A DNA stretch of 64,000 bases from assembly GCA_964589485.1 (NCBI GenBank), contig CAZPRK010000002.1, positions 49,825 to 113,824 on the forward strand. The letters are read 5' to 3'. The notes beneath the pieces were generated by a model. The model did no database searches. It was given only the letters and a program-made list of their open reading frames with translations, and had not been told where the DNA came from. A program made the position numbers and the translations under genes. The DNA comes from an uncultured Methanosarcinales archaeon (GTDB taxonomy: Archaea > Nanobdellota > Nanobdellia > Woesearchaeales > CAYSVS01). The first letter of the stretch is position 1. The number at the start of each line of letters is the position of its first letter. This document shows, one piece after another, positions 7,824 to 53,641 of this stretch.

Positions 7824-9188
7824 ATGTTTAAATTTATTAAGAAATTATTTGGAAAAAAGAAAGTTTTTGTATTAGGAATAGATGGAGCTCCTCCAGAATT
7901 AGTTTTTGATAAATGGATTGATGAATTGCCTAATATTAAATCATTAATGAAAAATAGTGTATATGGAAAGTTAAAAAGTAGTATTCCTCCTTCTACTATA
8001 GTTGCATGGAGTTCAATGTTAACAGGGAAAGATCCAAGTCATTTTGATGTTTATAGTTACACTACAAAAGATGAACATAATAATTCTGTGTTAACTAACT
8101 CTAAAAATGTAAAAGATAAAAGGATTTGGAAATATATGGATGAAAATAATAAAAAATCAATTTTACTTAACATTCCGTTAACTTATCCTGTAGAAGAAGT
8201 AAATGGTATAATGTTAAGTGGGTTTTTAACTCCAAAATTTAACGAAAAAGCTGTATACCCTTTAGAAATTAAGAATGAAATTTTATCTCAGTTTCATGAT
8301 TATGCTTTTGATGTAGGAGTGGGATTGGCAGGATACAAAAACATTGAATCTAAACAAATGATAACTGCAGTAAATAAAATGACTATGCAACAACTTAAAA
8401 TTACTAAAGATTTTCTTAAAAAAGAATGGGATTTTTTTATGACTGTGTTAATTGGTTCAGATAGAATGCAACATACAATGTGGAGATTTATGGATGAAAA
8501 ACATAGAAGGTATGAAGAAAGTGAATTTAAAGATTCTATTAAAGATTATTATAAATACTTAGATAGGGAGATAGGAGATTTAAAATCTCAGTTAGATGAA
8601 GATACTTATTTTTTTATTTTATCTGATCATGGGTTTGATAGAATGGACGGAAGGTTTAATTTAAATGATTGGTTAATTCAGGAAGGATATCTTGTAATGA
8701 AAGAAGATATACAAAATCAAGAAAAACTTGACTTTAAAAAAGTTAATTGGGATAAAACTAAAGCTTATGCAGTTGGAGCTTACTTTGGAAGAATATATTT
8801 TAATAAAGTAGATATTCAAGATGAATTAATAGAAAAATTAAAACATATTAAAAATGATAGAGGAGAAGAAATGGATACAGTGTTTCATAAACCTAAAGAA
8901 GTTTATTCTGGAGAATATCTAGAAAGTTCACCTGATTTGTATGTGTTTTTTGATAACTTAAGATGGGGAGTTAATAATGATGTAGGGAATGAAGGATTGT
9001 ATTCAGAAAAAACTACTAAAGGGAGTGATGATGCAGGACATGCCCCAAACGGATTATTTTTATTAAATCATAATTCTATAACTGAAGAAAATATTAACGC
9101 GGATATTTTAGATATATTACCTACAATATTAAATATTTATGAAATAAAACATAATTTAGAAGGAAAAAATTTAATCAAGGTATCCTAA
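7824..9188 (+). CDS. Alkaline-phosphatase superfamily protein (type I phosphodiesterase/nucleotide pyrophosphatase family, PF01663-like)
   Basis: N-terminal VLGIDGAPPELV...STIVAWSSMLTGKDPSHFDVY matches the GxDG...TxPxWxSxxTG metal-site motif of PF01663 proteins. No TM helices. Confidence 0.65.
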   Translation: MFKFIKKLFGKKKVFVLGIDGAPPELVFDKWIDELPNIKSLMKNSVYGKLKSSIPPSTIVAWSSMLTGKDPSHFDVYSYTTKDEHNNSVLTNSKNVKDKRIWKYMDENNKKSILLNIPLTYPVEEVNGIMLSGFLTPKFNEKAVYPLEIKNEILSQFHDYAFDVGVGLAGYKNIESKQMITAVNKMTMQQLKITKDFLKKEWDFFMTVLIGSDRMQHTMWRFMDEKHRRYEESEFKDSIKDYYKYLDREIGDLKSQLDEDTYFFILSDHGFDRMDGRFNLNDWLIQEGYLVMKEDIQNQEKLDFKKVNWDKTKAYAVGAYFGRIYFNKVDIQDELIEKLKHIKNDRGEEMDTVFHKPKEVYSGEYLESSPDLYVFFDNLRWGVNNDVGNEGLYSEKTTKGSDDAGHAPNGLFLLNHNSITEENINADILDILPTILNIYEIKHNLEGKNLIKVS

Positions 9189-10490
9189 TTCTTTTAAACG
9201 TAGCTTAACGTCTTCTTCTTCATCTTTAGAATAAAATTGTTTATCTTTATTTTGAATTTTTTCGTAATCTTTTTTAACAATTGTAAAAGAATTTTCAAAA
9301 AGATCTAAAACTTTTCCAGACATATTATTATCTATTGGGTTTTTCATAATTTGAAGAATTGTGGGAGTAACATCTAATACATGTGCATCTATTCTATGAT
9401 CTTTTTTAATTCCTTTACCAAATGCAATAAAAATTCCATCTGGAGAATCTTCGTGTTCACCTGATCTAATACTTTTATCGTTATAATCCTTTTCCTTTAT
9501 TGATGAAATTCCATGATCTGAAACTATAACTAAAGTATGACCTTCTTTAATGAACTTTCCAATTTGTTCATCTAAAAATTTATAATATTTGCTAATTATA
9601 TCTTTATATTTATCAAGTAAAGATAAATCTGCAAATTTAAAATCTTCGGGTTTATGATATTGCCAGAAAATATGTTGAATAGCATCCAATCCTGATAAAT
9701 ATAATGCATTAAATTCAACATTAAACTCAGAACTAATCTCAGAAACAAATAAATCTGACCTGTATGCTTGCGCAAAAAAATTAATTCTCTCATTTTTAAT
9801 AAGTTCTTTGTTTTTAATTTTTTCTTTATCTTCATCATTAAATGAATTAAAAAAAGATGGAATTGAAGAAAGGGAAGAATTAAAAACTGATTCTTTCTTT
9901 TTATCAATTAAGTTACTTAAACTAATTGGATAAAATTCTTCACCATTAGAAATTGATTTTTTATTTTTATAATATGCTTTAGTGGTTTCTATTACTTTTT
10001 CTGAAATTATATATTCATTGATAGGTTTAACTGGCCATGTTGTTAAAAATCCAGTAACTCCACATTTAACATTATTTTCAGATAAAATTTCCCATACAGT
10101 TTTACATTTTCTGAAAGAACTTGTAGTTAAATAATTTCCACCAATTCCAAGTTTTTCAAATAAATTTCCATATTTTAACATTGAGTAAATGTATGCTTTT
10201 TTTAAAAAACGTGAATTAAATTTATTAGATAATCTATTTGGCCAGTCTATTAAAAAGTTAGAAGAAATATCTTTTTTATTTAAAAATAAATTTGTAAAAT
10301 AAGATATTCCTGATTCTTCTGGAGTTCTTCCAGTAATAATAGAGTTCCAAATTGCAGGGCTTTTATATCCTGGAAGGCTTTTCAATGAAGCTGTAGTTCC
10401 TTCATTAATTAGTTTCTTAAAGTTAGGTAAATCTAATGAATTTATAACTTCCCATGATGCTCCATCAATTCCTATAAAAGTTAATTTCAT
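9171..10490 (-). CDS. Alkaline-phosphatase superfamily protein (PF01663-like), paralog of 7824-9188
   Basis: FIGIDGASWEV...SPAIWNSIITGRTPEESG and VIVSDHG motifs. Convergent with and overlapping its paralog. Confidence 0.65.
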   Translation of the reverse strand: MKLTFIGIDGASWEVINSLDLPNFKKLINEGTTASLKSLPGYKSPAIWNSIITGRTPEESGISYFTNLFLNKKDISSNFLIDWPNRLSNKFNSRFLKKAYIYSMLKYGNLFEKLGIGGNYLTTSSFRKCKTVWEILSENNVKCGVTGFLTTWPVKPINEYIISEKVIETTKAYYKNKKSISNGEEFYPISLSNLIDKKKESVFNSSLSSIPSFFNSFNDEDKEKIKNKELIKNERINFFAQAYRSDLFVSEISSEFNVEFNALYLSGLDAIQHIFWQYHKPEDFKFADLSLLDKYKDIISKYYKFLDEQIGKFIKEGHTLVIVSDHGISSIKEKDYNDKSIRSGEHEDSPDGIFIAFGKGIKKDHRIDAHVLDVTPTILQIMKNPIDNNMSGKVLDLFENSFTIVKKDYEKIQNKDKQFYSKDEEEDVKLRLKELGYLD

Positions 10491-31090: not shown

Positions 31091-31173
31091 TTACTAAACA
31101 GTAATGTAAAAAGTTAGTTTTATAAGTAACTTATCTTTACTTGCAAAAATGATTCAATTCGGAGGGTTTCACA

Positions 31174-32154: not shown

Positions 32155-32161
32155 TTTTATT

Positions 32162-34567: not shown

Positions 34568-34678
34568 TTGTTACTCTTGAGGGATGGTGTTATGCGAAAG
34601 CTTTATATACGACTTGGTCTTAACACAACTATTTTAAAGTAGTTATGGGGTGTTTTAACTTTACGGAGGGTTAATCAA

Positions 34679-35491: not shown

Positions 35492-35508
35492 GTAAGAGGT
35501 TTACAAAA

Positions 35509-39843: not shown

Positions 39844-39966
39844 TTTACTTATTTTTAGTTAAATTGTGTAACTACTCTTGTATGTTGAAATGCAGAAACA
39901 TTTAAATACTACAGGGTATTACGCGACATTAAACGATCAAAAAAACCAAATTTGGAGGGAAAACAA

Positions 39967-41223: not shown

Positions 41224-41261
41224 TTTTTTTTTTTTTAATATATTTATTTTGAGGGGGTTAA

Positions 41262-43502
41262 ATGCGTAATATCTTAATATTCTTAATTATTGTATCTATT
41301 TTAAGTGTTAGTGTTAGTGCAGATTTTAATTTTTATTCAACTAATTCTGAAATGATGACGTGTGAATATAATCCAAGTAACATTGATGTGTTAGGAGTAC
41401 AAAATATAGGAACATCTGCTTCAAATTATCAAATAAAATTATCTGGAGATAATAAATGGTCTAAAGTTTATCCTAATAAATTTTTCCTTCCAAGTGGATC
41501 TACTCAGTTAATTAATTTATTTAGTGAAGCACCAACAGGAGCATATGATTTTGATATTATAGTTTACCCTGATTTCGGTTTACCTAAAGTTCTAAAAAAG
41601 AAAATTATTGTTGATAAGTGTATTAATGTTCAATTAATTGCGAAAAAAGCAGGTGTAGGTGCATGTGCAGGGAAATATATAGAAATTCCTTTAGAAATTA
41701 CTAATAGAGGTGTATTTGAGGAAGAATATTTTTTATCTGTTGATGCTTTTGGTGAAGAAAATTTTAGTAAGAATAATTTTAAATTAAAACCAAGTGAAAG
41801 TTTATCTGTTGTATATTCTAATAATTTACCTAAAGATTTTTTTGGAAATAAAACAATTACAATTAAAGTTAAAGCATTGAAATCTGGATTAATTTCTAAA
41901 TTAGAAATTCCTATTAAAATAAACAACTGTTATAACTTTGATATTAAAGCAAATAATAATGTTCAAGTGTGTAATAATGATAAACAAAACATTACATTTA
42001 CTGTTAATAATTTAGCTAGTTTAAATACAAAAGTTGATTTAGAATTAAATTCACCTTATTGGGTTAAACTTAATAGTAAGAATGTGAATTTAGAAGGAAA
42101 TTCTAATAAGTTTGTAAATGTTGAAATTAATTCTGATAAAGCTCAAGAAACAAATATTACTTTATCCGGTAAAGCATTTGGAAAAGAAGTAAATAAAGTA
42201 GTGAAAATTAAGTCAATTGAATGTTATGATTTAGATATTAAGTCTGAAATTAGAAAAGATGTTTGTGCGTGTAATAAGGAAAAATATGATTTAATTATTC
42301 AGAATAAAGGTAATAAAGATGATTTGGTTTTAGATGTATTTTCAGAAAAAATAAATTTTCATAAACAAAAAAGTATCTTATTAAATACAAAAAATAAAGT
42401 AACTTATGATTTTGATTTAGATATTCCTTGTTCAAGTATTGGAACTGGAGAAATACAATCTATTGCTACATCTAATGGAGAAATTAGAAAAAAAAATTCA
42501 ACAATTTTAAACATTTATTCTCCTTATAAATGTAAACAAGCTGAATTTAAAGTAAATAAATTTAAGTTTACTAACGATGAAAGTAAAAGGTTTACTTTAG
42601 ATGTCATTAATACTGGAATAAAAAGAGCTTCTTATAAAATAAATGCTTATCCTGTAGATTTAGTTACATTTAACATAAGAAATGTTGTTTTAGAACCTGG
42701 TAAAAGTTTTAGTGTTCCTTTTTCTTTAACTAAAGATGATACTGGTATTTATTCAGTTTTGTTTAGTGCAGTTTCTAAGGATCAAAATTATGAACAAGAA
42801 TTTTTATTTGTAGTTGGTGATGTTCATAAATCAAAAGTTGCAATGTATACTTATGGCTTCATAGGATTAATTATTTTACTTTTAATATTGAATTTTGTAA
42901 GAAAAAAAATTCAAAAGTCTAAAAGAAATTTTAAAAAAATATTTACTATTTCATTTTTAATAGTTTTATTAGGTTATTTGTTATATTTATTTTATCAAAA
43001 ATTCGGATTAAAATTCTTTAATTATTTAAGAAATGTGGATTATGGAGAATTATTTTCAAAATTATCAAAAAATTCAGAACTATTATTACATGATTTAGGG
43101 AATTCTTTAAGTATAGGCGTAAATTATGTTATTTTATTTTTGAAGTTATATGGTTTGTATTTAATAGTGGGTTTAATTATATTGTTTACCCTAATATTCA
43201 TTTTTGAGAAGAGAAATAAATTTAAAAGCTTATTGGTAAGTAAAAAACGTGATGTGAAAGTGGAAGAAGTAACAAAGAAAAAATCTAACTTTTTTGATTT
43301 TGTTTTGAATTTCTTTTTTGAAATAGAAAAAGTAGAAGTAAAGACTGAAGAACCTGTGAAAGTAAAACCTAAAAAAATTAAAACAGAAGTTCCTAAGGAA
43401 GTTAAATCTAAAAAAGTTACTAAGAAAGTAGCAAAAAAGAAAACTGATATACCTGAACCTTGGAGTAAAGTAAAAAAATACAAAAAGGTTAATAAAGATT
43501 AA
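41262..43502 (+). CDS. Cell-surface protein with signal peptide, CARDB-like repeats, C-terminal TM segments and a Lys-rich cytoplasmic tail
   Basis: RBS GAGGGGG upstream. Two TM helices near aa 520-640, then KKVKPKKIKTEVPKEVKSKKVTKKVAKKK. Confidence 0.65.
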   Translation: MRNILIFLIIVSILSVSVSADFNFYSTNSEMMTCEYNPSNIDVLGVQNIGTSASNYQIKLSGDNKWSKVYPNKFFLPSGSTQLINLFSEAPTGAYDFDIIVYPDFGLPKVLKKKIIVDKCINVQLIAKKAGVGACAGKYIEIPLEITNRGVFEEEYFLSVDAFGEENFSKNNFKLKPSESLSVVYSNNLPKDFFGNKTITIKVKALKSGLISKLEIPIKINNCYNFDIKANNNVQVCNNDKQNITFTVNNLASLNTKVDLELNSPYWVKLNSKNVNLEGNSNKFVNVEINSDKAQETNITLSGKAFGKEVNKVVKIKSIECYDLDIKSEIRKDVCACNKEKYDLIIQNKGNKDDLVLDVFSEKINFHKQKSILLNTKNKVTYDFDLDIPCSSIGTGEIQSIATSNGEIRKKNSTILNIYSPYKCKQAEFKVNKFKFTNDESKRFTLDVINTGIKRASYKINAYPVDLVTFNIRNVVLEPGKSFSVPFSLTKDDTGIYSVLFSAVSKDQNYEQEFLFVVGDVHKSKVAMYTYGFIGLIILLLILNFVRKKIQKSKRNFKKIFTISFLIVLLGYLLYLFYQKFGLKFFNYLRNVDYGELFSKLSKNSELLLHDLGNSLSIGVNYVILFLKLYGLYLIVGLIILFTLIFIFEKRNKFKSLLVSKKRDVKVEEVTKKKSNFFDFVLNFFFEIEKVEVKTEEPVKVKPKKIKTEVPKEVKSKKVTKKVAKKKTDIPEPWSKVKKYKKVNKD

Positions 43503-45392: not shown

Positions 45393-48386
45393 ATGGAGAA
45401 TCATGAAGAGAAAAAAGAAGAAAATATTGACTTTAAAAAAGTTCTAGGGAAGACTAAAGACTATTTTAAAAATCCTCCATTTATGACTTTTTTTAAGAAT
45501 AATAAAACTTGGATTATTCCTGTTTTATGTTTAATTATTGCTATGTCTTTTAGTATATTTATGAGAATTCAACCTGATTATTTACCAATTACAGATAGAT
45601 GGGCTGCAAGTAACATCGATAGTGGAATAAGAAGTCAAGTGAAAGGACAAATAGATAGACAATATCCTAACCTTCCTGATGAAAATAAAGTTTCTTTAAT
45701 TGACGCAGAAGTTGCAAAAACATATCAACAACATGGAGCTGCAATTGAACAACAAAAGCAACAAATAAGTCAAGGTTTAAAGGCCCAATTACAAGACGAA
45801 AATGGTCAAACTTATTTATTGGCAATTGATCCTTATTATTGGTATGGCTTGGCCAGAAATAAAGTAAATAATGGTCATTATGGAGATAAATTTAATGAAA
45901 ATAAAGATAGTGTTTATACATTAAGAGATGGAAGAATTGATAAAAAAGTTCCGCAAGCATTAAATCCAGTAGCAATGTTTTATTTATATAAAATTATGAA
46001 TTTTTTTAACAGGGATGTAACTTTGTTTAAAGCTGCATTTTATTTGCCAATGCTTTTGGTTACTTTGGCAGTAATTCCTATTTTCTTTATTACACGAAAA
46101 TTGGCAGGAAATTTTGGAGGGTTATTTGCTGGAATTATTTTTTCAGTTAATGGTGCGTTATTAGCTAGAACTCCTGCAGGTTTTGCTGATACTGACCCAT
46201 ATAATGTATTATTTCCTGCATTTATTGCATGGATGTTATTGGAAGCTTTAGATGCAGAAAAACATAGCTTTAAAATTTTATTTGCTACATTATCTGGATT
46301 AGTAACTGGGTTATTTGCTTGGGCTTGGTCAGGATGGGGATTTATGTATGACTTTGTTTTAGCTACATTAGGTGTAACTTTTGTATATTATGTGTTTGTT
46401 AATAGAAAACATTTAACATTTAGGAATTTATTTAAAGATTTTAAAGTTATAGGGTTTATTCAACTTGGGGTTACTTATTTATTGGCTTCAGGTGTTTTTG
46501 TTACATTATTTTCTTCATATAAAACATATACTGCAGCGTTATTAAAACCATTGAAATTTATTAATATTAAAGCTGTTGCTGTAGATAGTGTATGGCCAAA
46601 TGTAATGACAACAGTTGCTGAATTTAATGTTGTCAATATTTCTAATATAATGAGTCAAATGGGTGGTAGGTTTTTATTTTTCTTATCAGTGATTGGTATT
46701 TTTTTAGCATTACTTAAAAAAGATAAAAATAATCATAGAGATGTTGGATATTTCTTTTTGTTGGCAATTTGGTTTATTGGAACAACATTTGCGTTTACTA
46801 GAGGAACTAGATTTGCATTATTGATGGTGCCTGCATTCGCTATAGCTTTAGGTGTAACTATTGGTGTAGTTTATACAAAGTTAAGTAGTTGGTTATCCAG
46901 TGAACTTAATGTGAATAAAAGGTTATCTCAAACTGTTTTATTTTTAATTCTAGCCTTATTATTAATAGGTCCAGTAAAAACAGCATACGGAATTAGTTTA
47001 AATGAAATTCCTTCTTTTAATGATGGGTGGAATAACGAGTTAACTAAAATAAAAAAAGCATCTGAAGATTCTATTATAACATCTTGGTGGGACTTTGGTC
47101 ATTGGTTTGTTGCAATGGGAAATACAAGAGTTACGTTTGATGGTGGAGATCAAGGAAAAAGAATTCATTGGGTTGGTAGGAGTTTATTAACAGATGATGA
47201 AACTGAAGCAAATGCAATATTAAGAATGTTAAATTGTGGACAAGAAAAAGGTGAAGAGTTATTATCTGAATATATGGGAAGTGAATATGTTGCTGTTAAA
47301 TTATTAAAAGAAATTATTATGTTGGATGATAAAAGTGCAAAATTAAAGTTAATTGAGAAAGGTTTAACTGAAGAACGATCAAATGAAGTTTTAACTTTAA
47401 CTCATTGTAATGATTTAATAGATAATTATTACATTACTTCACAAGATATGGTTGGAAAGTCAGGAGTATGGGGACATTTTGGTAGTTGGGATTTTGATAA
47501 AGCTGCAATGTATAACCAAGTTAGAACTTTAGAATATAATGATGGAGTTTCTATTTTATCAAATGAATTTGGTTTAAGTGATGATTTAGCAGATAGATAT
47601 TTTTATGAAATTAAGAATCAAGACCCTGATAGGTGGATAAGTCCTTGGCCTGGATATGCGTCAGGTGTTTCTTCATGTTCAAAGACTGATAATTTAGTTA
47701 AATGTGGAAATGGTTTAGAAGTTAACTTAGATACATTTGATGCTTTTGTTTATCCTCAACAAGGAAAATCACGTATTAAAAGTTTAGCTTATATTGACAA
47801 TAATAACGAATATCAATTAAAAGAATTTGATCCTGAAGTTAACTTTGGAGCTATATTAATTCCTAACGGAAATAGTTTTAATTCAGTATTAACTTCACCA
47901 GAACAAACTGGATCAATGTTTTCCAGACTTTATTTTTTAGGTGGACATGGTTTAAAACATTTTCAACCTTTTAGTAGAACTAGAACATTTAACGGATTAA
48001 ATATTTATACTTATAAAATAGATTTTCAAGGTGGGGAAAAAGTTATTGATGAAAATTTATTACCGCCTTTAGAATTAAGCGCTCAACATATTTTATTAAA
48101 ATCAAGTGATAATGAATCTTTAAAAAGAATAACTGAAATAAGAAATTTAGCTCTTACTTCTGATTTTGGGGATTTGGCAACAAAGTATTCTCAAGGTCCA
48201 ACTAATGCAACTAAGGGTGAATTAGGTTGGTTTTCTAAAGGTATGATGGTTAAACCTTTTGAAGAAGCTGCATATGCTTTAGAAATTGGAGAAATATCTG
48301 AGCCAGTATTAACACAATTTGGATATCATATAATTAAGATAAATGCTAAGCGGAGAGGATCTGTAGAGGAAAATGGATTCAAATGA
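45393..48386 (+). CDS. aglB: Oligosaccharyltransferase AglB (STT3 family) with a C-terminal parvulin-type peptidyl-prolyl isomerase (PpiC) domain
   Basis: 997 aa. Multi-TM N-terminal half, then SWWDFGHWFVAMGN (the WWDYG catalytic motif). The last about 95 aa (SAQHILLKSS...GELGWFSKGMMVKPFEEAAYALEIGEISEPVLTQFGYHIIK) are a canonical parvulin/PpiC rotamase domain. Confidence 0.8.
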   Translation: MENHEEKKEENIDFKKVLGKTKDYFKNPPFMTFFKNNKTWIIPVLCLIIAMSFSIFMRIQPDYLPITDRWAASNIDSGIRSQVKGQIDRQYPNLPDENKVSLIDAEVAKTYQQHGAAIEQQKQQISQGLKAQLQDENGQTYLLAIDPYYWYGLARNKVNNGHYGDKFNENKDSVYTLRDGRIDKKVPQALNPVAMFYLYKIMNFFNRDVTLFKAAFYLPMLLVTLAVIPIFFITRKLAGNFGGLFAGIIFSVNGALLARTPAGFADTDPYNVLFPAFIAWMLLEALDAEKHSFKILFATLSGLVTGLFAWAWSGWGFMYDFVLATLGVTFVYYVFVNRKHLTFRNLFKDFKVIGFIQLGVTYLLASGVFVTLFSSYKTYTAALLKPLKFINIKAVAVDSVWPNVMTTVAEFNVVNISNIMSQMGGRFLFFLSVIGIFLALLKKDKNNHRDVGYFFLLAIWFIGTTFAFTRGTRFALLMVPAFAIALGVTIGVVYTKLSSWLSSELNVNKRLSQTVLFLILALLLIGPVKTAYGISLNEIPSFNDGWNNELTKIKKASEDSIITSWWDFGHWFVAMGNTRVTFDGGDQGKRIHWVGRSLLTDDETEANAILRMLNCGQEKGEELLSEYMGSEYVAVKLLKEIIMLDDKSAKLKLIEKGLTEERSNEVLTLTHCNDLIDNYYITSQDMVGKSGVWGHFGSWDFDKAAMYNQVRTLEYNDGVSILSNEFGLSDDLADRYFYEIKNQDPDRWISPWPGYASGVSSCSKTDNLVKCGNGLEVNLDTFDAFVYPQQGKSRIKSLAYIDNNNEYQLKEFDPEVNFGAILIPNGNSFNSVLTSPEQTGSMFSRLYFLGGHGLKHFQPFSRTRTFNGLNIYTYKIDFQGGEKVIDENLLPPLELSAQHILLKSSDNESLKRITEIRNLALTSDFGDLATKYSQGPTNATKGELGWFSKGMMVKPFEEAAYALEIGEISEPVLTQFGYHIIKINAKRRGSVEENGFK

Positions 48387-49035
48387 TGTTTGGGTTGTGG
48401 TTCCGGCTTGTAATGAGGAACAACATATTTCTTTAGTTCTTAATGATATTAAAAAATATACTAATAATATTATTTTGGTTGATGATGGAAGTAAAGATAA
48501 TACTGTTAAAATTTCTGAAGGTTTAGGTGTAATTGTATTAAAACATATGTTTAACTTAGGAAAGGGCGCAGCATTAAAGACAGGGTGTGACTTTGCTTTA
48601 AAGAAAAAGGCAAATAAAATTATAGTTATTGATTCAGATGGACAACATAAACCTGAAAATATTCCTGATTTTTTGAAAGCTCTAGAAACTAATGATATTG
48701 TTTTTAGTTATAGGACTCAAAGGGATGTTATGCCTTTAGTATTACGTTTTGGGAATTGGGTTATTAATACTGTATCTTATTTCTTATTTGGATTAAAATT
48801 AAAAGATACTCAATGTGGATACAGAGGGTTTACAAGTAATGCATATAAATTAGTTAAATGGGAAGCAGTTGATTATTTTATGGAATCTGAGATGGTTGCA
48901 AAAGCTGGAAGAGCTAAATTAAAGTATGTTCAAATTCCAATTGATACAATTTATAGTAACAAATATAAGGGAACTACTGTTTTAGATGGAATAAGGATTG
49001 TATTAAACATGTTTATTTGGAGGTTATTTAAATGA
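48373..49035 (+). CDS. GT2 dolichyl-phosphate sugar synthase-like glycosyltransferase (DPM1/AglD/AglJ-like)
   Basis: VVVPACNEEQHI...IILVDDGSKDNT; 220 aa. Confidence 0.8.
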   Translation: MDSNDVWVVVPACNEEQHISLVLNDIKKYTNNIILVDDGSKDNTVKISEGLGVIVLKHMFNLGKGAALKTGCDFALKKKANKIIVIDSDGQHKPENIPDFLKALETNDIVFSYRTQRDVMPLVLRFGNWVINTVSYFLFGLKLKDTQCGYRGFTSNAYKLVKWEAVDYFMESEMVAKAGRAKLKYVQIPIDTIYSNKYKGTTVLDGIRIVLNMFIWRLFK

Positions 49036-49358
49036 TATTAGGAATACAAATGGTTGGTATTTTATTTGGGTTACTTATGTTATATTTTGCATTTATTCAT
49101 TTTAAAAGAAAAGAAATGAAAAATTTTGAATTTTCAATTTGGTTTATTGTTTGGATTTTTTTTGTATTTTTAACAATTTTCCCAAATAGTTTAGATTTTA
49201 TAGCTACAACTTTAAATTTAGTAAGAACAATGGACTTTTTAACAGTTATGGGTTTTTTATTTTTGATAGGTTTAACTTATCATAATTATTTTGTAACTAA
49301 AAAGAACGAAAAGAATATTGAGAAAATTGTACGAGAAATATCATTAAAAGATAAGTAA
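49032..49358 (+). CDS. Small 3-TM membrane protein (DUF2304-like partner of the Dol-P glycosyltransferase)
   Basis: 108 aa with three hydrophobic helices. ATGA overlap with the upstream GT2 gene. Confidence 0.45.
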   Translation: MILGIQMVGILFGLLMLYFAFIHFKRKEMKNFEFSIWFIVWIFFVFLTIFPNSLDFIATTLNLVRTMDFLTVMGFLFLIGLTYHNYFVTKKNEKNIEKIVREISLKDK

Positions 49359-49390
49359 AGTTTATAAATTGCTTTTTCTTTTTAATTCTC

Positions 49391-49726
49391 ATGTACAAAT
49401 TTAAAGATTTAAGAAAGAAAGTTACACATAGTAAAGTATATTTACAAAGAACAATGTCATGGCTTAGCATGGCAAATGCAGGAATGATTTTATTTTTAGT
49501 GTTAAGTAAATTACAAGATTATGGCTATAAAATATATATAACTTATTGGATTATTCCAATATATTTATTATTTTTTTTGTTATTGATTTTGTTTGGTTTT
49601 ATCGAGGATAAACTTGGGTTTCATAGGGAAGAAAAAAAGTTAAATGAAGATAGAAGTCCTTATGTTAAAGAATTATTTAAAAGAATGGATAGGTTAGAAC
49701 GTAAAATTAACGGATTGAAAAAATGA
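49391..49726 (+). CDS. Small membrane protein, hypothetical
   Basis: 111 aa with two hydrophobic helices and a basic C-terminus. Overlaps the downstream GT4 start. Confidence 0.35.
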   Translation: MYKFKDLRKKVTHSKVYLQRTMSWLSMANAGMILFLVLSKLQDYGYKIYITYWIIPIYLLFFLLLILFGFIEDKLGFHREEKKLNEDRSPYVKELFKRMDRLERKINGLKK

Positions 49727-50841
49727 AAATTTTATTTGTATTAGAAAATTACATCCCACATATTGGTGGTGTTGAAATTGTTTTTAAAATATTAGCTGAA
49801 GGATTAGTTAAGAAAGGTCATCAAGTTGAAATAGTTACTCATAGAATTAAAGGTACTAAAAAATTTGAAGAAATAAATGGTGTGAAGATATATAGAGTAG
49901 AAAGTTTATCATCAAGGCATATTTTTACTTTTACATCTATTTTTGAAGTTATTAAACGTTCTAAAGATTGTGACATTATACATACTACAACTTACAATGG
50001 TGCTTTTCCTGCAAAAATTGCATCTATAATAAATAAAAAACCAGTAATAATAACTGTTCATGAAGTTTTAGGACAGTTATGGAGAAGTACAGGTGTTGGT
50101 TTTTTTCAATCTACAATATTAAGATTTTTGGAATTTTTAATTATTAAATTAAATTTTGATTATTATTTAACTGTTTCAAATTCCACAAGGCAACAGGTTT
50201 TGAATTGTAATGTTGAAGAAAATAAAGTTCAAACTGTTTATAATGGAGTTGATTATAGGTTATGGAACCCTAAAAAGAATGATATTGGTTTAAGAAAAAA
50301 ATTAAAACTTCAAGATAATTTTGTAATTTTATTTTATGGAAGACCTGGAATTAGTAAAGGTTTAGAATTTTTAATTAAAGCTTTACCAATAGTGTTTTCT
50401 AAAATTCCAAATGCAAAGTTTTTTGGTATTGTTAGTAAAGATAAAGCATATTCTTCAAGATATAAGTATATTTTGAGGTTAGTAAATAAGTTAGGAATAA
50501 AAGATAAATGTATATTTAATGACCCTGTGAAATATGTTGATTTGCCAAATTATATTTCTATGGTTAATTGTGTAATTGTTCCAAGCTTAACTGAAGGGTT
50601 TGGGTTTACTGCAGCTGAAAGTTGTGCAATGAATAAAATTGTGGTTGCAAGTAACACTACTTCACTTCCAGAAGTTGTTTCTGGGAAGTATACATTAGTA
50701 GAACCTGGGAATTCAGAAGCTATAGCAAATGGAATAATTGATGCTTATAATAACAAGTACAAAAAATCGAAAAAAAAATTCTTTTTAATACGAGATAATA
50801 TCAATAATTATGAAGATATTTATACTAAAATACTTACCTAA
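49723..50841 (+). CDS. GT4 (group 1) glycosyltransferase
   Basis: TEGFGFTAAESCAMNKIVVAS matches the E-x7-E motif; 372 aa. Confidence 0.75.
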   Translation: MKILFVLENYIPHIGGVEIVFKILAEGLVKKGHQVEIVTHRIKGTKKFEEINGVKIYRVESLSSRHIFTFTSIFEVIKRSKDCDIIHTTTYNGAFPAKIASIINKKPVIITVHEVLGQLWRSTGVGFFQSTILRFLEFLIIKLNFDYYLTVSNSTRQQVLNCNVEENKVQTVYNGVDYRLWNPKKNDIGLRKKLKLQDNFVILFYGRPGISKGLEFLIKALPIVFSKIPNAKFFGIVSKDKAYSSRYKYILRLVNKLGIKDKCIFNDPVKYVDLPNYISMVNCVIVPSLTEGFGFTAAESCAMNKIVVASNTTSLPEVVSGKYTLVEPGNSEAIANGIIDAYNNKYKKSKKKFFLIRDNINNYEDIYTKILT

Positions 50842-50896: not shown

Positions 50897-53641
50897 ATGT
50901 CTAAGTCAAAAATTATAGTTTCATTAGGTCCTAGTACTTCAACAGAAGATGATTTAAGGAAGATTAAAGCTAAAGGAGTAGATTTTGTTAGGATTAATAT
51001 GAGTCATAGTTCTTTACAAGATTTAGAAAAATATATTTTAATGGCAAAAAAGGTAGGAATTCCTTTTATTGTTGATACTGAAGGAAGTCAGGTAAGATCT
51101 GGAGATTTAGTTCATAATAAAATTATAATTAATGAAGGGGATGAAGTTGTACTTCATTCTAAAGCAATCAAAGGAGATGAAAAAAATATTACTTTAAACC
51201 CAGGAACTATAATTAATCAATTAGAAGTGGGAGATATTTTACATTGTGATTTTGATACTTTAATTTTACGTGTTTCTGATGTTTCAAATGCTATTAATGG
51301 AAGTATAAAATCAGTAGCCGTAACTGGTGGATATTTAGGAATTAATAAAGGAATTGCATTTGATTTAGGAAGAGATAGAACTTTGAAACTTCCTATTTTG
51401 AGTGAAAAAGATTTAGGTGCAATAGAATTAGGTTTAAAATATAATGTTGAACATATTGCTGCATCATTTATGAGAAGAGGAAGTGATGTTAAGAAAGTAA
51501 GAGAATTAAGCCAAGGAAAAATGAAAATTATTTCTAAAGTTGAATGTAGAGATGCATTAGATAATTTACAAGAAATAATTGATGAGACTGATTATATATT
51601 AATAGATAGGGGAGATTTAAGTAAAGAAGTTCCTTTAGATATGTTACCTTTTTTACAAAAATTAATTATTAAAAAAGCAGGAAATAAAGAAGTTTTTGTT
51701 GCAACTAATTTACTTGAAACTATGATTTTACATAAAAAGCCAACAAGAGCAGAAGTTAATGATGTAATGAATACTTTATTAGATGGGGCAAAAGGTTTAA
51801 CTTTAGCAGCTGAAACAGCAATAGGAAAATATCCTTTTGAATGTATTAATATTTTGCAAAAGCTAATTAATCATTATTTACAATGGGTTCATGAAGGAAA
51901 TGTTTTAGAAGAGTTAGAAAAAAATAATTATTTAGATAATAAGTTATCTTCAGCTTTAGTTCCACCTCATGGTGGAAAGTTAGTAAATAGGATTTCTAAT
52001 AAAGTTATAAATGAAAATTTATCTAAAATAATTATTGATGATAATAAACAAATGGATGTTGAACAAATTGCAGTAGGGACATTTAGTCCTTTGGAAGGGT
52101 TTATGGGAAAAAATGATTTACAATCTGTATTAGATAATATGAGATTAAGTAATGGTGTAATATGGCCATTGCCAATTTTATTGGATGTAACCGAATCTAA
52201 AGCTAAATCTATTAATGAGGGCGAGGAAATATTGTTAGTTAATTCCATTGGAGAAAAAATTGCAACTATGGATATTGAGGAAAAATATAAGTTTGATAAA
52301 AAAGAATTAGCACAAAAAGTATACGGGACATTAGATGAAAAACACCCTGGAGTTAGAATGGTTTTACAAATGAAATCTATTTTTTTAGCAGGGAAAATTA
52401 ATTTAATTAAAAGAAAAGAATCTGAATTTAAAGAATATGAAATGACTCCTAGGCAAGTTAGAAGGTTATTTGAAGAAAGAAATTGGTCTAAAATTGTTGG
52501 ATTTCATACACGGAATGTAATACATAGAAGTCATGAATTTATTCAGTTAAAAGCAATGGAGAATGAAAATTGTGATGGGTTATTTGTACATCCTGTCATA
52601 GGTAAAAAGAAAAAAGGTGACTTTAATTCTCAATATATTATTAAAAGTTATGAATTAATGAAAAAACATTATTATCCTAAAAATAAAGTTATTTTTTCTA
52701 CTTTTTCTACTTTTTCAAGGTATGGTGGACCAAGGGAAGCTTTATTTACTGCAATATGTAGAAAGAATTTTGGATGTTCACATTTTATTGTTGGAAGAGA
52801 TCATACTGGAGTTGGAGATTTTTATCATCCGCACGCATCTCATATGATTTTTGATAATTTTTTAGATTTAGGAATTAAACCAGTAAAATTTGATAAAGTG
52901 TTTTATTCAGAAAAAATAAATGAACATGTACATGAAAAAGAAGATGATTCTCATGAAGAAGAAGATAAATTACATATAAGTGGAACTCAAGCAAGGAAAA
53001 TGTTTGAAAATCAAGAAACTCCACCTGAATGGTTTATAAGGTCTAGAATTTCATCAATGATTATAGATTCTGTAAGAAATAATGAAGAAGTTTTTGTAAA
53101 AGAACAAAATAAAGGAAAAGTTATTTGGTTTACTGGATTAAGTGGGAGCGGAAAAAGTACAATTGCTAATTCATTAAAAGAAAAATTAGAATTTTTTGGG
53201 AAAAGTGTAATTATTGTTGATGGAGATATTGTTAGAAATAGTTTTAATAAACATTTAGGATTCTCAAGAGAAGATATAAGAGAAAATAATAGTATTATTT
53301 CAGAAATATGTAAAGAACATCAAAATAAATTTGATTATATATTAGTTCCAATAATTTCGCCTTTCAAGGAAGATAGACAAATGGCTTCAGCTTTAATTGG
53401 TGAAGATTTTATTGAATTGTTTATTAATTCTTCATTGGAAGTGTGTAAAGAAAGAGATGTTAAAGGGTTATATAAGAAAGCTGTTGCTGGTGAAATTGAA
53501 AATTTTATTGGTATAAGTGCTCCTTATGAAGCTCCTGAAAACCCAAATATTTCAGTTAAAACAGATGAAGAAAGTTTAGATGAATCTATTGATAAAATTA
53601 CTGGATATTTAAAAAATTCAGGATTGCTGCAAAACATTTAA
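50897..53641 (+). CDS. Trifunctional protein: pyruvate-kinase-like barrel domain + ATP sulfurylase + APS kinase (PAPS synthase)
   Basis: The N-terminal about 330 aa have pyruvate-kinase motifs (VRINMSHSS; MKIISKVECRDAL; IDRGDLSKEVP; LDGAKGLTLAAETAIGKYP). The middle carries GFHTRNVIHRSHEF and IVGRDHTGVG (ATP sulfurylase QTRN/HRAH and GRDHAG motifs). The C-terminus carries IWFTGLSGSGKSTIA (APS kinase P-loop). Confidence 0.8.
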   Translation: MSKSKIIVSLGPSTSTEDDLRKIKAKGVDFVRINMSHSSLQDLEKYILMAKKVGIPFIVDTEGSQVRSGDLVHNKIIINEGDEVVLHSKAIKGDEKNITLNPGTIINQLEVGDILHCDFDTLILRVSDVSNAINGSIKSVAVTGGYLGINKGIAFDLGRDRTLKLPILSEKDLGAIELGLKYNVEHIAASFMRRGSDVKKVRELSQGKMKIISKVECRDALDNLQEIIDETDYILIDRGDLSKEVPLDMLPFLQKLIIKKAGNKEVFVATNLLETMILHKKPTRAEVNDVMNTLLDGAKGLTLAAETAIGKYPFECINILQKLINHYLQWVHEGNVLEELEKNNYLDNKLSSALVPPHGGKLVNRISNKVINENLSKIIIDDNKQMDVEQIAVGTFSPLEGFMGKNDLQSVLDNMRLSNGVIWPLPILLDVTESKAKSINEGEEILLVNSIGEKIATMDIEEKYKFDKKELAQKVYGTLDEKHPGVRMVLQMKSIFLAGKINLIKRKESEFKEYEMTPRQVRRLFEERNWSKIVGFHTRNVIHRSHEFIQLKAMENENCDGLFVHPVIGKKKKGDFNSQYIIKSYELMKKHYYPKNKVIFSTFSTFSRYGGPREALFTAICRKNFGCSHFIVGRDHTGVGDFYHPHASHMIFDNFLDLGIKPVKFDKVFYSEKINEHVHEKEDDSHEEEDKLHISGTQARKMFENQETPPEWFIRSRISSMIIDSVRNNEEVFVKEQNKGKVIWFTGLSGSGKSTIANSLKEKLEFFGKSVIIVDGDIVRNSFNKHLGFSREDIRENNSIISEICKEHQNKFDYILVPIISPFKEDRQMASALIGEDFIELFINSSLEVCKERDVKGLYKKAVAGEIENFIGISAPYEAPENPNISVKTDEESLDESIDKITGYLKNSGLLQNI

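What the first reader, a model, noticed from the sequence alone, without database searches (positions are those of the whole stretch)
50897..53641. PAPS synthase with an N-terminal pyruvate-kinase-like domain inside the N-glycosylation cluster
ATP sulfurylase (HTRNVIHRSHEF, GRDHTG) and APS kinase (GLSGSGKST) domains are preceded by about 330 aa carrying the pyruvate-kinase barrel motifs (SKVECRDAL, IDRGDLS, AAETAIGKYP) but lacking the PK C-terminal domain. PAPS made beside AglB and the glycosyltransferases suggests sulfated N-glycans. The PK-like domain might regenerate ATP or consume ADP locally, or might have been repurposed. This three-domain architecture is unusual.
Basis: partly seen in the sequence, partly recalled or inferred. 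Interest (0 to 1): 0.6.

Follow-up and report, generated by a model that had tools for sequence, protein, structure and literature searches.

The report
PAPS synthase fused to pyruvate kinase
One archaeal gene joins the two enzymes that make the sulfate donor PAPS to a shortened but apparently active pyruvate kinase; the fusion is common and so far undescribed in uncultured microbes, and it probably recharges its own ATP from phosphoenolpyruvate to feed sulfation of cell-surface sugars.

Summary
Window 50897-53641 (+) is one 914-aa ORF with four domains: pyruvate kinase (PK) A+B (aa 2-317, no C domain), PUA_2, ATP sulfurylase and APS kinase. It is not a misassembly, because the identical protein lies on 7 contigs. 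It is not rare either. More than 120 protein clusters and 60 species genomes carry this PK subtype, which is fused to ATP sulfurylase in 58 of those 60 genomes. The carriers are candidate-phyla-radiation bacteria (CPR), DPANN archaea, Chloroflexota, NC10, Planctomycetota and others.

All PK catalytic residues are invariant across 116 relatives. A subtype signature (E62, Q65, D237, N271) separates this C-domain-less clade from canonical PKs.

In the 40 related loci with long flanks, a sulfotransferase lies within 8 kb in 30 and a CysQ-type phosphatase in 13. An APS kinase is fused or adjacent in most.

Best reading: a PAPS synthase with a built-in PEP-driven ADP-to-ATP recharger. Published in-vitro PAPS synthesis needs the same PK/PEP addition. 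PAPS would go to glycan sulfation.

"Sulfated N-glycans" remains unproven. No sulfotransferase was found in about 84 kb, although a matching CysQ lies about 9 kb upstream of the window. I found no published description of the fusion. Verdict: a new variant of a known kind, of moderate to high interest.

The parts
50897..53641 (+). Whole gene: PK(A+B)-PUA_2-ATP sulfurylase-APS kinase, 914 aa plus stop codon
   Evidence: ORF; Pfam and NCBIfam; identical protein on 7 contigs; AlphaFold2 mean pLDDT 93.4 and pTM 0.81
50897..51886 (+). Pyruvate-kinase A (TIM barrel) plus B (cap) domains, aa 1-330, with no C-terminal allosteric domain. Catalytic residues R32 N34 S36 D60 T61 R67 K151 K214 E216 D240 T270 E306 are present. 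The subtype signature is E62, S64, Q65, D237, N271, A304, A305.
   Evidence: Pfam PF00224 at 2-317, E 1.4e-66; alignments to 2e28, 3t05 and PykF; residue census; Foldseek hits to PK structures
51887..51961 (+). Linker, aa 331-355, carrying a conserved LE..NYL motif (L340 E341 N344 Y345); lower pLDDT (75-79)
   Evidence: Invariant columns in A2; pLDDT profile; NYL-type tails also occur in some PK-only relatives
51962..52414 (+). PUA_2 domain, the N-terminal domain of ATP sulfurylase, aa 356-506
   Evidence: Pfam PF14306, E 1.5e-48; aligned to 8a8d and 2gks
52433..53065 (+). ATP sulfurylase catalytic domain, aa 513-723, with motifs FHTRNVIHRSHE and GRDHTG
   Evidence: Pfam PF01747, E 7e-76; TIGR00339 score 379 above its cut-off of 323; Foldseek target-normalised TM 0.93 to 8a8d; invariant H537 N540 H546 D635 H636
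53111..53560 (+). APS kinase domain, aa 739-888, with intact P-loop GLSGSGKST and the DGD motif
   Evidence: Pfam PF01583, E 1.4e-50; TIGR00455 score 197 above its cut-off of 138.7; aligned to the 2gks kinase domain
45393..50841 (+). Upstream co-directional glycosylation genes: AglB/STT3 fused to a rotamase (45393-48386), GT2 (48373-49035), DUF2304 (49032-49358), a 111-aa ORF (49391-49726) and GT4/GT1 (49723-50841). Probably co-transcribed context.
   Evidence: Gene and Pfam table of L001, which equals the window; ORFs
7824..10490 (.). Convergent pair of cytoplasmic NPP-like alkaline-phosphatase-superfamily genes (7824-9188 +, 9171-10490 -). A possible accessory of the PK/sulfate-activation module; the link is circumstantial.
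   Evidence: Pfam Phosphodiest. The first gene is 45% identical to the gene overlapping the start of the fusion gene in the Woesearchaeota locus L006. The same family is fused to PK in P0261, P0285 and P0351 and lies next to an ATP sulfurylase gene in L092. AF2 pLDDT 95.4 and Foldseek hits to ENPP and Xac NPP structures.

Best explanation
The gene encodes a four-domain, self-recharging PAPS synthase. The ATP sulfurylase domain makes APS from ATP and sulfate. The APS kinase domain phosphorylates APS to PAPS and releases ADP. The N-terminal pyruvate-kinase A+B module uses phosphoenolpyruvate to turn ADP back into ATP on the same polypeptide or oligomer. This keeps local ATP high and ADP low for two ADP-sensitive, ATP-hungry steps. 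[quoted passage not shown] The PK module has lost the allosteric and tetramerisation C domain, so it is no longer a regulated glycolytic enzyme but a dedicated accessory. PAPS is then used by sulfotransferases to sulfate cell-surface glycans, and CysQ removes the PAP by-product. Shown: the domain composition, intact catalytic residues, conservation of the fusion, and the operon partners in relatives. Inferred: PK activity, its coupling to sulfate activation, and the glycan target.
For: 1. Architecture and homology are clear.
2. All PK substrate, metal and catalytic residues are invariant in 116 close relatives and in 85 more distant fused representatives. This argues for retained catalysis rather than a dead scaffold.
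3. In GTDB species genomes, 58 of the 60 family-type PK domains are fused to ATP sulfurylase. One (L054) is fused to APS kinase only, and one (L062) is cut by its contig end. About 22 also carry APS kinase, and most three-domain forms have an APS kinase gene next door.
4. A rare PK+APS kinase-only fusion exists (L054 and 2 representatives), which ties PK directly to the ADP-producing step.
5. Among the 40 loci with long flanks, a sulfotransferase lies within 8 kb in 30 and a CysQ-type phosphatase in 13. Fusions APSK+CysQ (L014) and PK-ATPS-APSK-CysQ (L066) exist.
6. A CysQ-like gene about 50% identical to those lies about 9 kb upstream of this window, on sequence 99.99% identical to it.
7. Published in-vitro work shows PAPS synthesis by PAPSS1 almost fails without a PK/PEP ATP-regeneration module, because ADP accumulates (PMC9885120). 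The enzyme-ADP-APS dead-end complex is a hallmark of APS kinases (PMC3734648).
8. AlphaFold2 gives a confident whole-chain model, pTM 0.81.
Against: - No enzymology exists for any member.
- The commonest form is PK+ATP sulfurylase with APS kinase on a separate gene. The tightest coupling is therefore with the step that consumes ATP but makes no ADP.
- The PK clade carries invariant substitutions next to the active site: E62 for Lys, Q65 for the Glu/Lys monovalent-cation switch residue, D237 for Ala, N271 for Gln. These could mean altered nucleotide or cation specificity.
- Relatives of this PK are also fused to an NPP-like enzyme and to a sugar-1-phosphate nucleotidyltransferase. The module may therefore recharge NTPs more generally.
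- At least one complete stand-alone short PK of this subtype exists.
- No sulfotransferase was found within about 84 kb in this genome.
Confidence: 0.6

Rival explanations
1. General NTP-recharging module. The C-domain-less PK regenerates whichever nucleoside triphosphate is needed (ATP, but also UTP, CTP or GTP from the diphosphates) for the PPi-releasing nucleotidyl-transfer enzymes of glycan biosynthesis. ATP sulfurylase is only its most frequent partner.
For: The same PK subtype is fused to a sugar-1-phosphate nucleotidyltransferase (P0082) and to an NPP-like enzyme (P0261, P0285, P0351). That NPP-like family is in turn fused to nucleotidyltransferases (P0375, P0376). The genes sit in nucleotide-sugar and nonulosonic-acid clusters. 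Canonical PKs accept several NDPs (established knowledge).
Against: 58 of 60 species-level occurrences, and 87 of the 150 nearest representatives, are fused to ATP sulfurylase specifically. The other fusions are rare. The adenine-nucleotide logic fits all three catalytic domains.
Confidence: 0.15
2. Housekeeping PK by accident of fusion. This is the organism's ordinary glycolytic pyruvate kinase, joined to the sulfate-activation genes only for co-expression, with no kinetic coupling.
For: JGI names several members 'pyruvate kinase'. No second PK occurs in the 64-kb window. CPR and DPANN genomes are small and often fuse genes.
Against: The fusion also occurs in large-genome Chloroflexota (a 10.4-Mb contig), NC10, Planctomycetota and Acidimicrobiia, which should have canonical PKs. 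The allosteric C domain is lost. The clade has its own invariant signature. The gene lies in glycan clusters next to sulfotransferase and CysQ, not with glycolysis genes.
Confidence: 0.1
3. Repurposed PK fold. The domain binds PEP or a nucleotide as a sensor or oligomerisation scaffold, or it catalyses a different phosphoryl transfer. Examples would be a different acceptor, or a direct energetic drive of APS formation analogous to the CysN GTPase.
For: Invariant clade-specific changes lie beside the cation, PEP and nucleotide sites: K to E62, P to S/A64, E to Q65, A to D237, Q to N271, SG to AA304-305. The regulatory domain is lost. The linker motif LE..NYL is conserved.
Against: Every residue known to bind PEP, Mg, K and the nucleotide phosphates, plus the catalytic Lys and Thr, is invariant. 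That is hard to explain for a non-catalytic role. Apart from ATP and ADP, no chemical intermediate is shared by PK and the sulfurylase.
Confidence: 0.1
4. Dissimilatory or reverse use. The sulfurylase runs from APS + PPi to ATP + sulfate as part of sulfur energy metabolism, as is sometimes assumed when 'sat' is found in DPANN genomes.
For: Metagenomic surveys have read sat genes in DPANN genomes as inorganic sulfur catabolism (PMC8091004).
Against: The protein has a fused, intact APS kinase. Neighbours are sulfotransferase and CysQ. No APS reductase was seen in the window or the examined loci. PK would be pointless for an ATP-yielding direction.
Confidence: 0.03

Closest known systems
Bifunctional ATP sulfurylase/APS kinase of Aquifex aeolicus (PDB 2gks; NCBIfam NF004040)
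   Same: Same domain order (PUA-like, sulfurylase, APS kinase) and the same motifs. It aligns over aa 375-912 with E 3e-107 and 34-35% identity.
   Different: It has no N-terminal PK module. The window protein scores 466 against NF004040, below the 669 equivalog cut-off. The family has His instead of Gln in the (Q/H)TRN motif.
ATP sulfurylase of Methanothermococcus thermolithotrophicus (PDB 8a8d)
   Same: Best single-domain match, 44-45% identity, target-normalised TM 0.93, rmsd 2.0 A over PUA plus the catalytic domain.
   Different: It is monofunctional and part of assimilatory sulfate reduction. It has no PK or APS kinase fused.
Canonical pyruvate kinases (Geobacillus 2e28, S. aureus 3t05, E. 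coli PykF 1pky)
   Same: The A and B domains align end to end at about 30-35% identity. All catalytic and ligand residues are shared.
   Different: The window protein lacks the C-terminal allosteric and tetramer domain. TIGR01064 scores 266, below the 306 cut-off. A clade signature (E62, S/A64, Q65, D237, N271, A304, A305) replaces K, P, E, A, Q, S, G. In particular, Gln occupies the Glu/Lys position that sets K+ dependence in known PKs.
In-vitro PAPS-generating cascades with a PK/PEP ATP-regeneration module (PMC9885120)
   Same: Same enzyme set and logic: sulfurylase, APS kinase and pyruvate kinase, with PK removing ADP. Without PK, ADP accumulated and PAPS was nearly absent.
   Different: It is an engineered mixture of separate enzymes. 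Here the three activities are on one natural polypeptide, and activity is untested.
Other sulfate-activation fusions: metazoan PAPSS (APS kinase-sulfurylase), the fungal sulfurylase with an APS-kinase-like regulatory domain (1i2d), APS kinase-sulfurylase-pyrophosphatase fusions of some protists, and GTP-coupled CysDN (last two from my own knowledge)
   Same: All add a helper that pulls or pushes the unfavourable sulfurylase step, by product removal, PPi removal or GTP hydrolysis.
   Different: None uses a PEP-dependent kinase. The helper here acts on the ATP/ADP side rather than on APS or PPi.

Membership tests
Bifunctional ATP sulfurylase/APS kinase (PAPS synthase, Aquifex/bacterial type) | PUA-like domain plus sulfurylase catalytic domain with the (Q/H)TRN..H..H and GRDH motifs | tested here: met
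   PF14306 E 1.5e-48; PF01747 E 7e-76; TIGR00339 score 379 above cut-off 323; PRK04149 score 456 above cut-off 387. Motifs are invariant in 116 sequences.
Bifunctional ATP sulfurylase/APS kinase (PAPS synthase, Aquifex/bacterial type) | C-terminal APS kinase domain with an intact Walker A P-loop (catalytic, not a regulatory relic) | tested here: met
   PF01583 E 1.4e-50; TIGR00455 score 197 above cut-off 138.7; GLSGSGKST and DGD motifs present
Bifunctional ATP sulfurylase/APS kinase (PAPS synthase, Aquifex/bacterial type) | Scores above the curated full-length equivalog threshold (NF004040) | tested here: not met
   Score 466 against cut-off 669. It is a divergent subfamily with an extra domain.
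Bifunctional ATP sulfurylase/APS kinase (PAPS synthase, Aquifex/bacterial type) | Makes PAPS from ATP and sulfate | not testable with these tools
   Needs an enzyme assay. Indirect support comes from sulfotransferase and CysQ neighbours in relatives.
Pyruvate kinase (EC 2.7.1.40) | A-domain TIM barrel with an inserted B (cap) domain | tested here: met
   PF00224 covers model positions 2-328 of 328. AF2 shows a barrel plus a beta cap at about aa 70-160. Foldseek hits PK structures.
Pyruvate kinase (EC 2.7.1.40) | Catalytic and ligand residues, given in rabbit PK numbering recalled from memory (R72, N74, S76, D112, T113, R119, K206, K269, E271, D295, T327, E363) | tested here: met
   R32 N34 S36 D60 T61 R67 K151 K214 E216 D240 T270 E306 are present and invariant or nearly so in 116 plus 85 relatives.
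Pyruvate kinase (EC 2.7.1.40) | C-terminal alpha/beta domain (effector binding, tetramer interface) | tested here: not met
   No PK_C hit in Pfam. PK homology ends near aa 330-345 and PUA_2 begins at 356. TIGR01064 scores 266, below cut-off 306.
Pyruvate kinase (EC 2.7.1.40) | Glu (K+-dependent) or Lys (K+-independent) at the cation-switch position (rabbit E117) | tested here: not met
   Gln65 in 116 of 116 close and 84 of 85 distant fused relatives. Canonical controls have Glu in 19 of 20, and PK_C-bearing K+-independent types have Lys.
Pyruvate kinase (EC 2.7.1.40) | PEP + ADP to pyruvate + ATP activity | not testable with these tools
   Requires biochemistry.
Metazoan-type PAPS synthase (PAPSS1/2) | Domain order with APS kinase N-terminal and sulfurylase C-terminal | tested here: not met
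   The order here is sulfurylase then kinase. The hit to 1x6v is split into two stretches.
   There is no Sulfotransfer_* Pfam hit, no tblastn hit and no custom-HMM hit in the window or in 10 kb on either side. It may lie elsewhere in the genome.
   An Inositol_P gene lies 8.6-9.4 kb upstream of the window start. It is about 50% identical to the CysQ genes flanking the fusion gene elsewhere.
   Needs glycan mass spectrometry.

The most novel reading that the evidence does not exclude
The C-domain-less pyruvate kinase clade is a portable, PEP-powered nucleotide-recharging cassette. Evolution has repeatedly bolted it onto PPi-releasing activating enzymes: ATP sulfurylase, APS kinase, sugar-1-phosphate nucleotidyltransferase, and an NPP-like alkaline-phosphatase-superfamily enzyme. 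In some DPANN archaea, including this one, no canonical sulfotransferase accompanies it. There the paired cytoplasmic NPP-like enzymes would use APS or PAPS directly, for example in sulfuryl or phosphosulfate transfer to a nonulosonic-acid glycan. That would be a sulfation route not based on the known sulfotransferase fold.
Probability: 0.1. Interest if true: 0.8.

Novelty: new variant of a known kind. Interest (0 to 1): 0.55.

Why it matters
- It would be a natural example of an activating enzyme that carries its own ATP-regeneration unit. Biocatalysis groups add the same PK/PEP unit by hand to make PAPS. A compact single-chain PAPS generator that runs on PEP could be useful for enzymatic sulfation.
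- It implies that many CPR bacteria and DPANN archaea invest in sulfated surface glycans. These organisms live attached to host cells, and their surfaces are almost uncharacterised.
- The family is shared across the bacterial-archaeal divide at a flat 52-62% identity, which points to horizontal transfer of a surface-modification module.
- It is an annotation trap. The same gene is named 'pyruvate kinase' or 'sulfate adenylyltransferase' in public records. It can therefore be counted as evidence for glycolytic substrate-level phosphorylation or for sulfur energy metabolism in genome-based reconstructions.

Tried and rejected
- **Misassembly or gene-call fusion.** Rejected: the identical protein is on 7 contigs and the architecture is conserved in hundreds of sequences.
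- **A different TIM-barrel family (HpcH, PUA).** Rejected by Pfam, NCBIfam, PDB sequence matches and Foldseek.
- **Sulfotransferase or CysQ hidden among unannotated window ORFs.** Searched with Pfam at E up to 10, tblastn with three sulfotransferase and two CysQ seeds, and iterated custom HMMs. Nothing was found in the window. Extending 10 kb each way found CysQ but no sulfotransferase.
- **The two thymidylate-kinase-like P-loop proteins (5455-6711, 22144-23439) as cryptic sulfotransferases.** Unlikely: they have classic Walker A kinase motifs and dTMP-kinase matches.
- **Haloferax Agl7 as a precedent linking alkaline-phosphatase-type enzymes to N-glycan sulfation.** The paper gives no such family assignment, so the lead was dropped.
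- **Restriction of the fusion to small-genome episymbionts.** Rejected: it also occurs in Chloroflexota, NC10, Planctomycetota, Acidimicrobiia, Omnitrophota and Neomarinimicrobiota MAGs.
- **Literature searches for a prior description.** Five queries found none. This covers only the held library.
- **Context of a stand-alone short PK (P0134).** The contig is only 1.7 kb and is uninformative.
- **Function of the NPP-like pair from NCBIfam or PDB sequence search.** No hits. Only the fold-level assignment to NPP enzymes was obtained.
Full report
**1. Observation**

The window holds a single ORF at 50897-53641 on the + strand.

Pfam splits it into four domains:
- PK barrel at aa 2-317, covering model positions 2-328 of 328 (E 1.4e-66)
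- PUA_2 at aa 356-506
- ATP-sulfurylase at aa 513-723
- APS_kinase at aa 739-888

There is no hit to the PK C-terminal domain. NCBIfam agrees. The sulfurylase (TIGR00339, PRK04149) and APS-kinase (TIGR00455) models pass their cut-offs. The full-length pyruvate kinase model (TIGR01064, 266 against 306) and the bifunctional Sat/CysC equivalog (NF004040, 466 against 669) do not.

Against solved structures, aa 375-912 align with the Aquifex aeolicus bifunctional enzyme 2gks (E 3e-107). Residues 355-734 align with the Methanothermococcus sulfurylase 8a8d. Residues 1 to about 340 align with true pyruvate kinases such as 2e28, 3t05 and PykF.

An AlphaFold2 model built on 116 relatives is confident throughout (mean pLDDT 93.4, pTM 0.81). 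Its Foldseek matches are the same sulfurylase and PK families, and no solved chain combines the two.

The fusion is not an assembly artefact. The identical protein is called on 7 contigs from different samples.

**2. The organism and the neighbourhood**

GC content is about 26%. Flanking genes include aIF5B, eRF1, an archaeal histone, L37ae and prefoldin, so this is an archaeon. The contigs come from groundwater metagenomes. The nearest named relatives of several of its proteins are Nanoarchaeia and Woesearchaeota, so it is probably a DPANN archaeon.

The gene closes a long co-directional run: AglB/STT3 fused to a rotamase, GT2, DUF2304, a small ORF and GT4. The gap upstream is 55 nt, and 25 nt separate the gene from aIF5B.

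The first 27 kb of the window form a large glycan cluster. It holds:
- a DegT aminotransferase, a formyltransferase and a flippase
- several glycosyltransferases
- two NeuB-type synthases, one fused to a CMP-sugar synthetase and one to a methyltransferase
- a UDP-sugar dehydrogenase and epimerases
- two NPP-like 'Phosphodiest' genes

**3. How common is the architecture?**

A search of 5.8 billion proteins returned more than 120 clusters at 50-77% identity with the same domains. About half are roughly 905-950 aa with all four domains. The other half are roughly 750 aa and lack the APS kinase.

Source names include many CPR lineages (Paceibacterota, Yanofsky-, Sung-, Doudna- and Falkowbacteria) and DPANN archaea (Woesearchaeota, Nanoarchaeota).

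A scan of one genome per GTDB species with a PK-domain alignment found 60 loci at 49-61% identity. They are cleanly separated from canonical PKs at 30-35%. Besides CPR and DPANN, the titles include Anaerolineales, Ardenticatenaceae (a 10.4-Mb contig), NC10, Acidimicrobiia, Omnitrophota, Neomarinimicrobiota and Planctomycetota. The fusion is therefore not confined to reduced episymbionts.

With domain HMMs built from the family, 58 of these 60 PK domains proved to be fused to the sulfurylase. The exceptions are L054, which is PK+APS kinase only, and L062, which is cut by its contig end. About 22 also carry the kinase. Most three-domain forms have an APS kinase gene immediately downstream.

An exhaustive HMMER search with the PK domain alone showed that the fusion extends to 35% identity. 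Of the 150 nearest 50%-identity representatives, 87 are PK+sulfurylase (3 of them with the kinase too), 2 are PK+APS kinase, and 1 is NPP-like+PK. Fifty-seven are PK-only, mostly 325-360 aa, and only 3 have a PK C domain. At least one PK-only member is a complete gene.

Identity of the window protein to all 64 loci is flat at 52-62% whatever the taxon. A Woesearchaeota copy is more distant (52%) than Falkowbacteria or Ardenticatenaceae copies (57-58%). This points to repeated horizontal transfer, including between bacteria and archaea.

**4. Is the PK part a working enzyme?**

I mapped the query onto Geobacillus, S. aureus and E. coli PK and then onto the family alignment. The mapping to rabbit PK numbering is from my own knowledge.

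The following residues are invariant or nearly so in 116 close relatives and in 85 more distant fused representatives:
- the phosphate-binding Arg (R32, R67) and Lys (K151)
- the K+ ligands (N34, S36, D60, T61)
- the catalytic Lys (K214)
- the Mg ligands (E216, D240)
- the proton-donor Thr (T270) and E306

That pattern is what catalysis, not scaffolding, predicts.

The clade also has its own invariant signature, which canonical PKs never show in my control set. DTEGSQVR replaces DTKGPEIR (E62, S/A64, Q65). IDRGDLS replaces VARGDLG (D237). ATN replaces ATQ (N271). AAET replaces SGET.

Q65 occupies the position where Glu marks K+-dependent PKs and Lys marks K+-independent ones. The three PK_C-bearing representatives with Lys there fit that rule. 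This clade therefore has a third state of unknown consequence.

The region after the barrel (aa 331-355) is a lower-confidence linker with a conserved LE..NYL motif.

**5. What is the activated sulfate for?**

Three related loci were read in full.
- In a 1.03-Mb CPR contig the order is NeuB, sulfotransferase, an extra APS kinase, the fusion gene, then a CysQ-type Inositol_P phosphatase.
- A second locus has NeuB, epimerase, CMP-sugar synthetase, sulfotransferase, the fusion gene and CysQ.
- A three-domain member is followed by a small P-loop kinase, a sulfotransferase and CysQ.

A Pfam census of the two genes on each side of the fusion gene in 64 loci gave these counts:
- APS_kinase: 23
- Sulfotransfer_1: 26
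- Inositol_P: 10
- PQ-loop: 8
- Capsule_synth: 9
- plus methyltransferases and glycosyltransferases

Iterated HMMs found a sulfotransferase within 8 kb in 30 of the 40 loci with full flanks. They found CysQ in 13 and NeuB in 13. Fusions APSK+CysQ (L014) and PK-sulfurylase-kinase-CysQ (L066) also exist.

This is the gene set of PAPS-dependent sulfation with PAP recycling, set in surface-polysaccharide clusters. It is not the set for sulfate reduction or sulfur respiration.

In the window itself I found neither a sulfotransferase nor CysQ by Pfam, tblastn or HMM. I extended 10 kb in both directions through contigs 99.99-100% identical to the window. This revealed a CysQ-like gene 8.6-9.4 kb upstream of the window start, about 50% identical to the CysQ genes that flank the fusion gene elsewhere. 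It revealed no sulfotransferase.

So PAPS use is supported in this organism, but the acceptor is not identified. 'Sulfated N-glycan' is one possibility. The frequent NeuB association suggests a nonulosonic-acid-containing glycan as another.

**6. Mechanism**

The sulfurylase consumes ATP in a very unfavourable reaction. The kinase consumes a second ATP and releases ADP. ATP and ADP are the only metabolites PK shares with the other two domains: its product is their substrate, and the kinase's product is its substrate.

APS kinases are characteristically trapped in an enzyme-ADP-APS dead-end complex (PMC3734648). A published cascade showed that human PAPSS1 makes almost no PAPS in 18 h unless a PK/PEP ATP-regeneration module is added, and that ADP accumulates otherwise (PMC9885120).

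The simplest reading is that the fusion is the natural counterpart of that module. PEP pays for one of the two ATPs and keeps ADP away from both nucleotide sites. Loss of the C domain fits a PK that no longer needs glycolytic regulation or its own tetramer.

I put this at about 0.6. The main reservations are these:
- The tightest and commonest fusion is with the sulfurylase, not the ADP-producing kinase.
- The active-site-proximal signature may change nucleotide or cation preference.
- The same PK subtype is occasionally fused to other partners.

**7. Rivals**

- **General NTP-recharging cassette for glycan-precursor activation (about 0.15).** Suggested by NTP_transferase-PK-sulfurylase (P0082) and NPP-like-PK fusions.
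- **Ordinary housekeeping PK fused by chance (about 0.1).** Disfavoured by its presence in large genomes, the lost regulation, the clade signature and the genomic context.
- **Non-catalytic or re-specialised domain (about 0.1).** Disfavoured by invariant catalytic residues.
- **Reverse or dissimilatory use (about 0.03).** Contradicted by the kinase, sulfotransferase and CysQ partners.

**8. The NPP-like pair**

The window's convergent 'Phosphodiest' genes (7824-9188 +, 9171-10490 -) belong to a DPANN-rich family annotated only as AlkP-superfamily phosphohydrolase/phosphomutase.

Several observations tie this family to the PK and sulfate-activation genes:
- The first gene is 45% identical to the gene that overlaps the start of the fusion gene in a Woesearchaeota locus, where a second paralogue and a sulfatase-like gene also sit.
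- In another locus a stand-alone sulfurylase is followed by a small ORF, an NPP-like+PK fusion and a second NPP-like gene.
- Members are also fused to nucleotidyltransferases.
- In a syntenic DPANN cluster the pair sits beside the NeuB genes, as it does here.

The AlphaFold2 model is excellent (pLDDT 95.4). Its nearest folds are nucleotide pyrophosphatase/phosphodiesterases at TM about 0.6 and 12-15% identity. The protein has no obvious signal peptide, and the metal-ligand Asp and His residues are conserved.

Possible roles are removing PPi or PAP, cleaving or transferring from APS, PAPS or nucleotide sugars, or acting as phosphomutases. I could not distinguish these.

**9. Comparison with what is known, and novelty**

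The sulfate-activating half is a member of the Sat-CysC type of bifunctional enzyme, with an Aquifex-like domain order. The N-terminal third is a pyruvate-kinase homologue that fails two family criteria: it has no C domain and carries a non-canonical cation-switch residue.

Other helpers of sulfate activation are known, such as the APS-kinase-like regulatory domain in fungi, pyrophosphatase fusions in some protists, and GTP hydrolysis in CysDN. A PEP-dependent kinase helper is not among them.

Five full-text searches found no description of this fusion. That library is incomplete, so this is absence of evidence only.

Public records name the protein 'sulfate adenylyltransferase' or 'pyruvate kinase'. 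A DPANN survey counts PYK and sat as separate markers, for glycolytic ATP gain and for sulfur catabolism respectively (PMC8091004). The fusion shows how such calls can mislead.

I rate it a new variant of a known kind. It is real, widespread, mechanistically suggestive and experimentally untested.

**10. Verdict**

Interest is 0.55.

Noticed in passing
window 7824-9188 (+) and 9171-10490 (-); L006 6698-10008; L092 2812-8049; L094 10001-12845: A conserved pair of cytoplasmic NPP-like alkaline-phosphatase-superfamily genes, mostly in DPANN archaea. It recurs next to or fused with the short pyruvate kinase, next to ATP sulfurylase, fused to sugar-phosphate nucleotidyltransferases, and beside NeuB genes. 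Function unknown; the fold is closest to ENPP and Xac NPP structures.
   Followed up: partly
window 45393-48386 (+): The oligosaccharyltransferase AglB/STT3 (997 aa) carries a C-terminal parvulin-type rotamase (PPIase) domain. On contig L002 the same region is called as two genes (807 aa plus a 156-aa rotamase).
   Followed up: no
window 5455-6711 (+) and 22144-23439 (-); L094 5957-7264: Two paralogous 420-430-aa proteins have an N-terminal domain with a faint nucleotidyltransferase (NTP_transf_5) match and a C-terminal thymidylate-kinase-like P-loop domain. They are conserved in a syntenic DPANN glycan cluster. Role unknown.
   Followed up: no
window 10487-13117 (-) and 13967-15691 (-): Unusual fusions in the nonulosonic-acid pathway: an 876-aa protein with xylose-isomerase-like TIM barrel + NeuB + SAF + CMP-sugar synthetase, and a 574-aa protein with NeuB + SAF + SAM methyltransferase.
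   Followed up: no
L090 617-6397 (2.6-9.4 kb upstream of the window start, same population genome): A CysQ-like phosphatase, a sugar nucleotidyltransferase and a HIT-family protein (DcpS_C, with a weak match to ATP adenylyltransferase). Also a 981-aa fusion of a cytidylyltransferase-like domain with PPDK_N and the PEP-utilizer mobile domain (PRK05849 family). This is another phosphotransfer module welded to a nucleotidyl-transfer enzyme, here of the PEP-synthase/PPDK type.
   Followed up: partly
P0003 (1341 aa); L011 2828-4519, L013 169-1959, L016 12078-13772, L039 4494-6251: Some bacteria (Chloroflexota, NC10) pair the PK-sulfurylase gene with a second sulfurylase-like+APS kinase protein. Its sulfurylase motifs look degenerate in P0003 (QAHGLLNQAHEE for QTRNPMHRxHE, MSHNHNG for GRDHAG). 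In P0003 both are on one chain. This may be a regulatory relic like the fungal APS-kinase-like domain.
   Followed up: no
L066 3-3230; L014 5652-7028; L054 224-1825; L009 2496-5555: Further fusion variants of the module: PK-sulfurylase-kinase-CysQ, APS kinase-CysQ, PK-APS kinase without sulfurylase, and nucleotidyltransferase-PK-sulfurylase.
   Followed up: partly
L004 3048-5897: The CPR locus with the fusion gene also encodes two PAPS_reduct-family proteins and an EF-Tu-like GTPase (a CysH/CysD/CysN-like set), plus an extra stand-alone APS kinase. Two different sulfate-activation systems therefore sit side by side.
   Followed up: no
downstream neighbours in 8 of 64 fusion loci (alignment A3): Small PQ-loop/MtN3 (SemiSWEET-like) membrane proteins recur right after the fusion gene. 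They may be a transporter linked to the pathway.
   Followed up: no
window 27863-43502 (+): A run of large ORFs with no Pfam match (1075, 326, 801, 270 and 746 aa) and a 1444-aa PKD-repeat protein lies directly upstream of AglB. These are probably surface or S-layer-type glycoprotein substrates.
   Followed up: no
record titles of L012, L014, L015, L023, L024, L027 and others: Many 'TPA_asm ... binchicken/co-assembly' MAGs carrying the fusion are labelled Methanosarcinales, Gammaproteobacteria or Saccharibacteria. Their sequences group with DPANN and CPR copies, so these taxon labels look unreliable.
   Followed up: no
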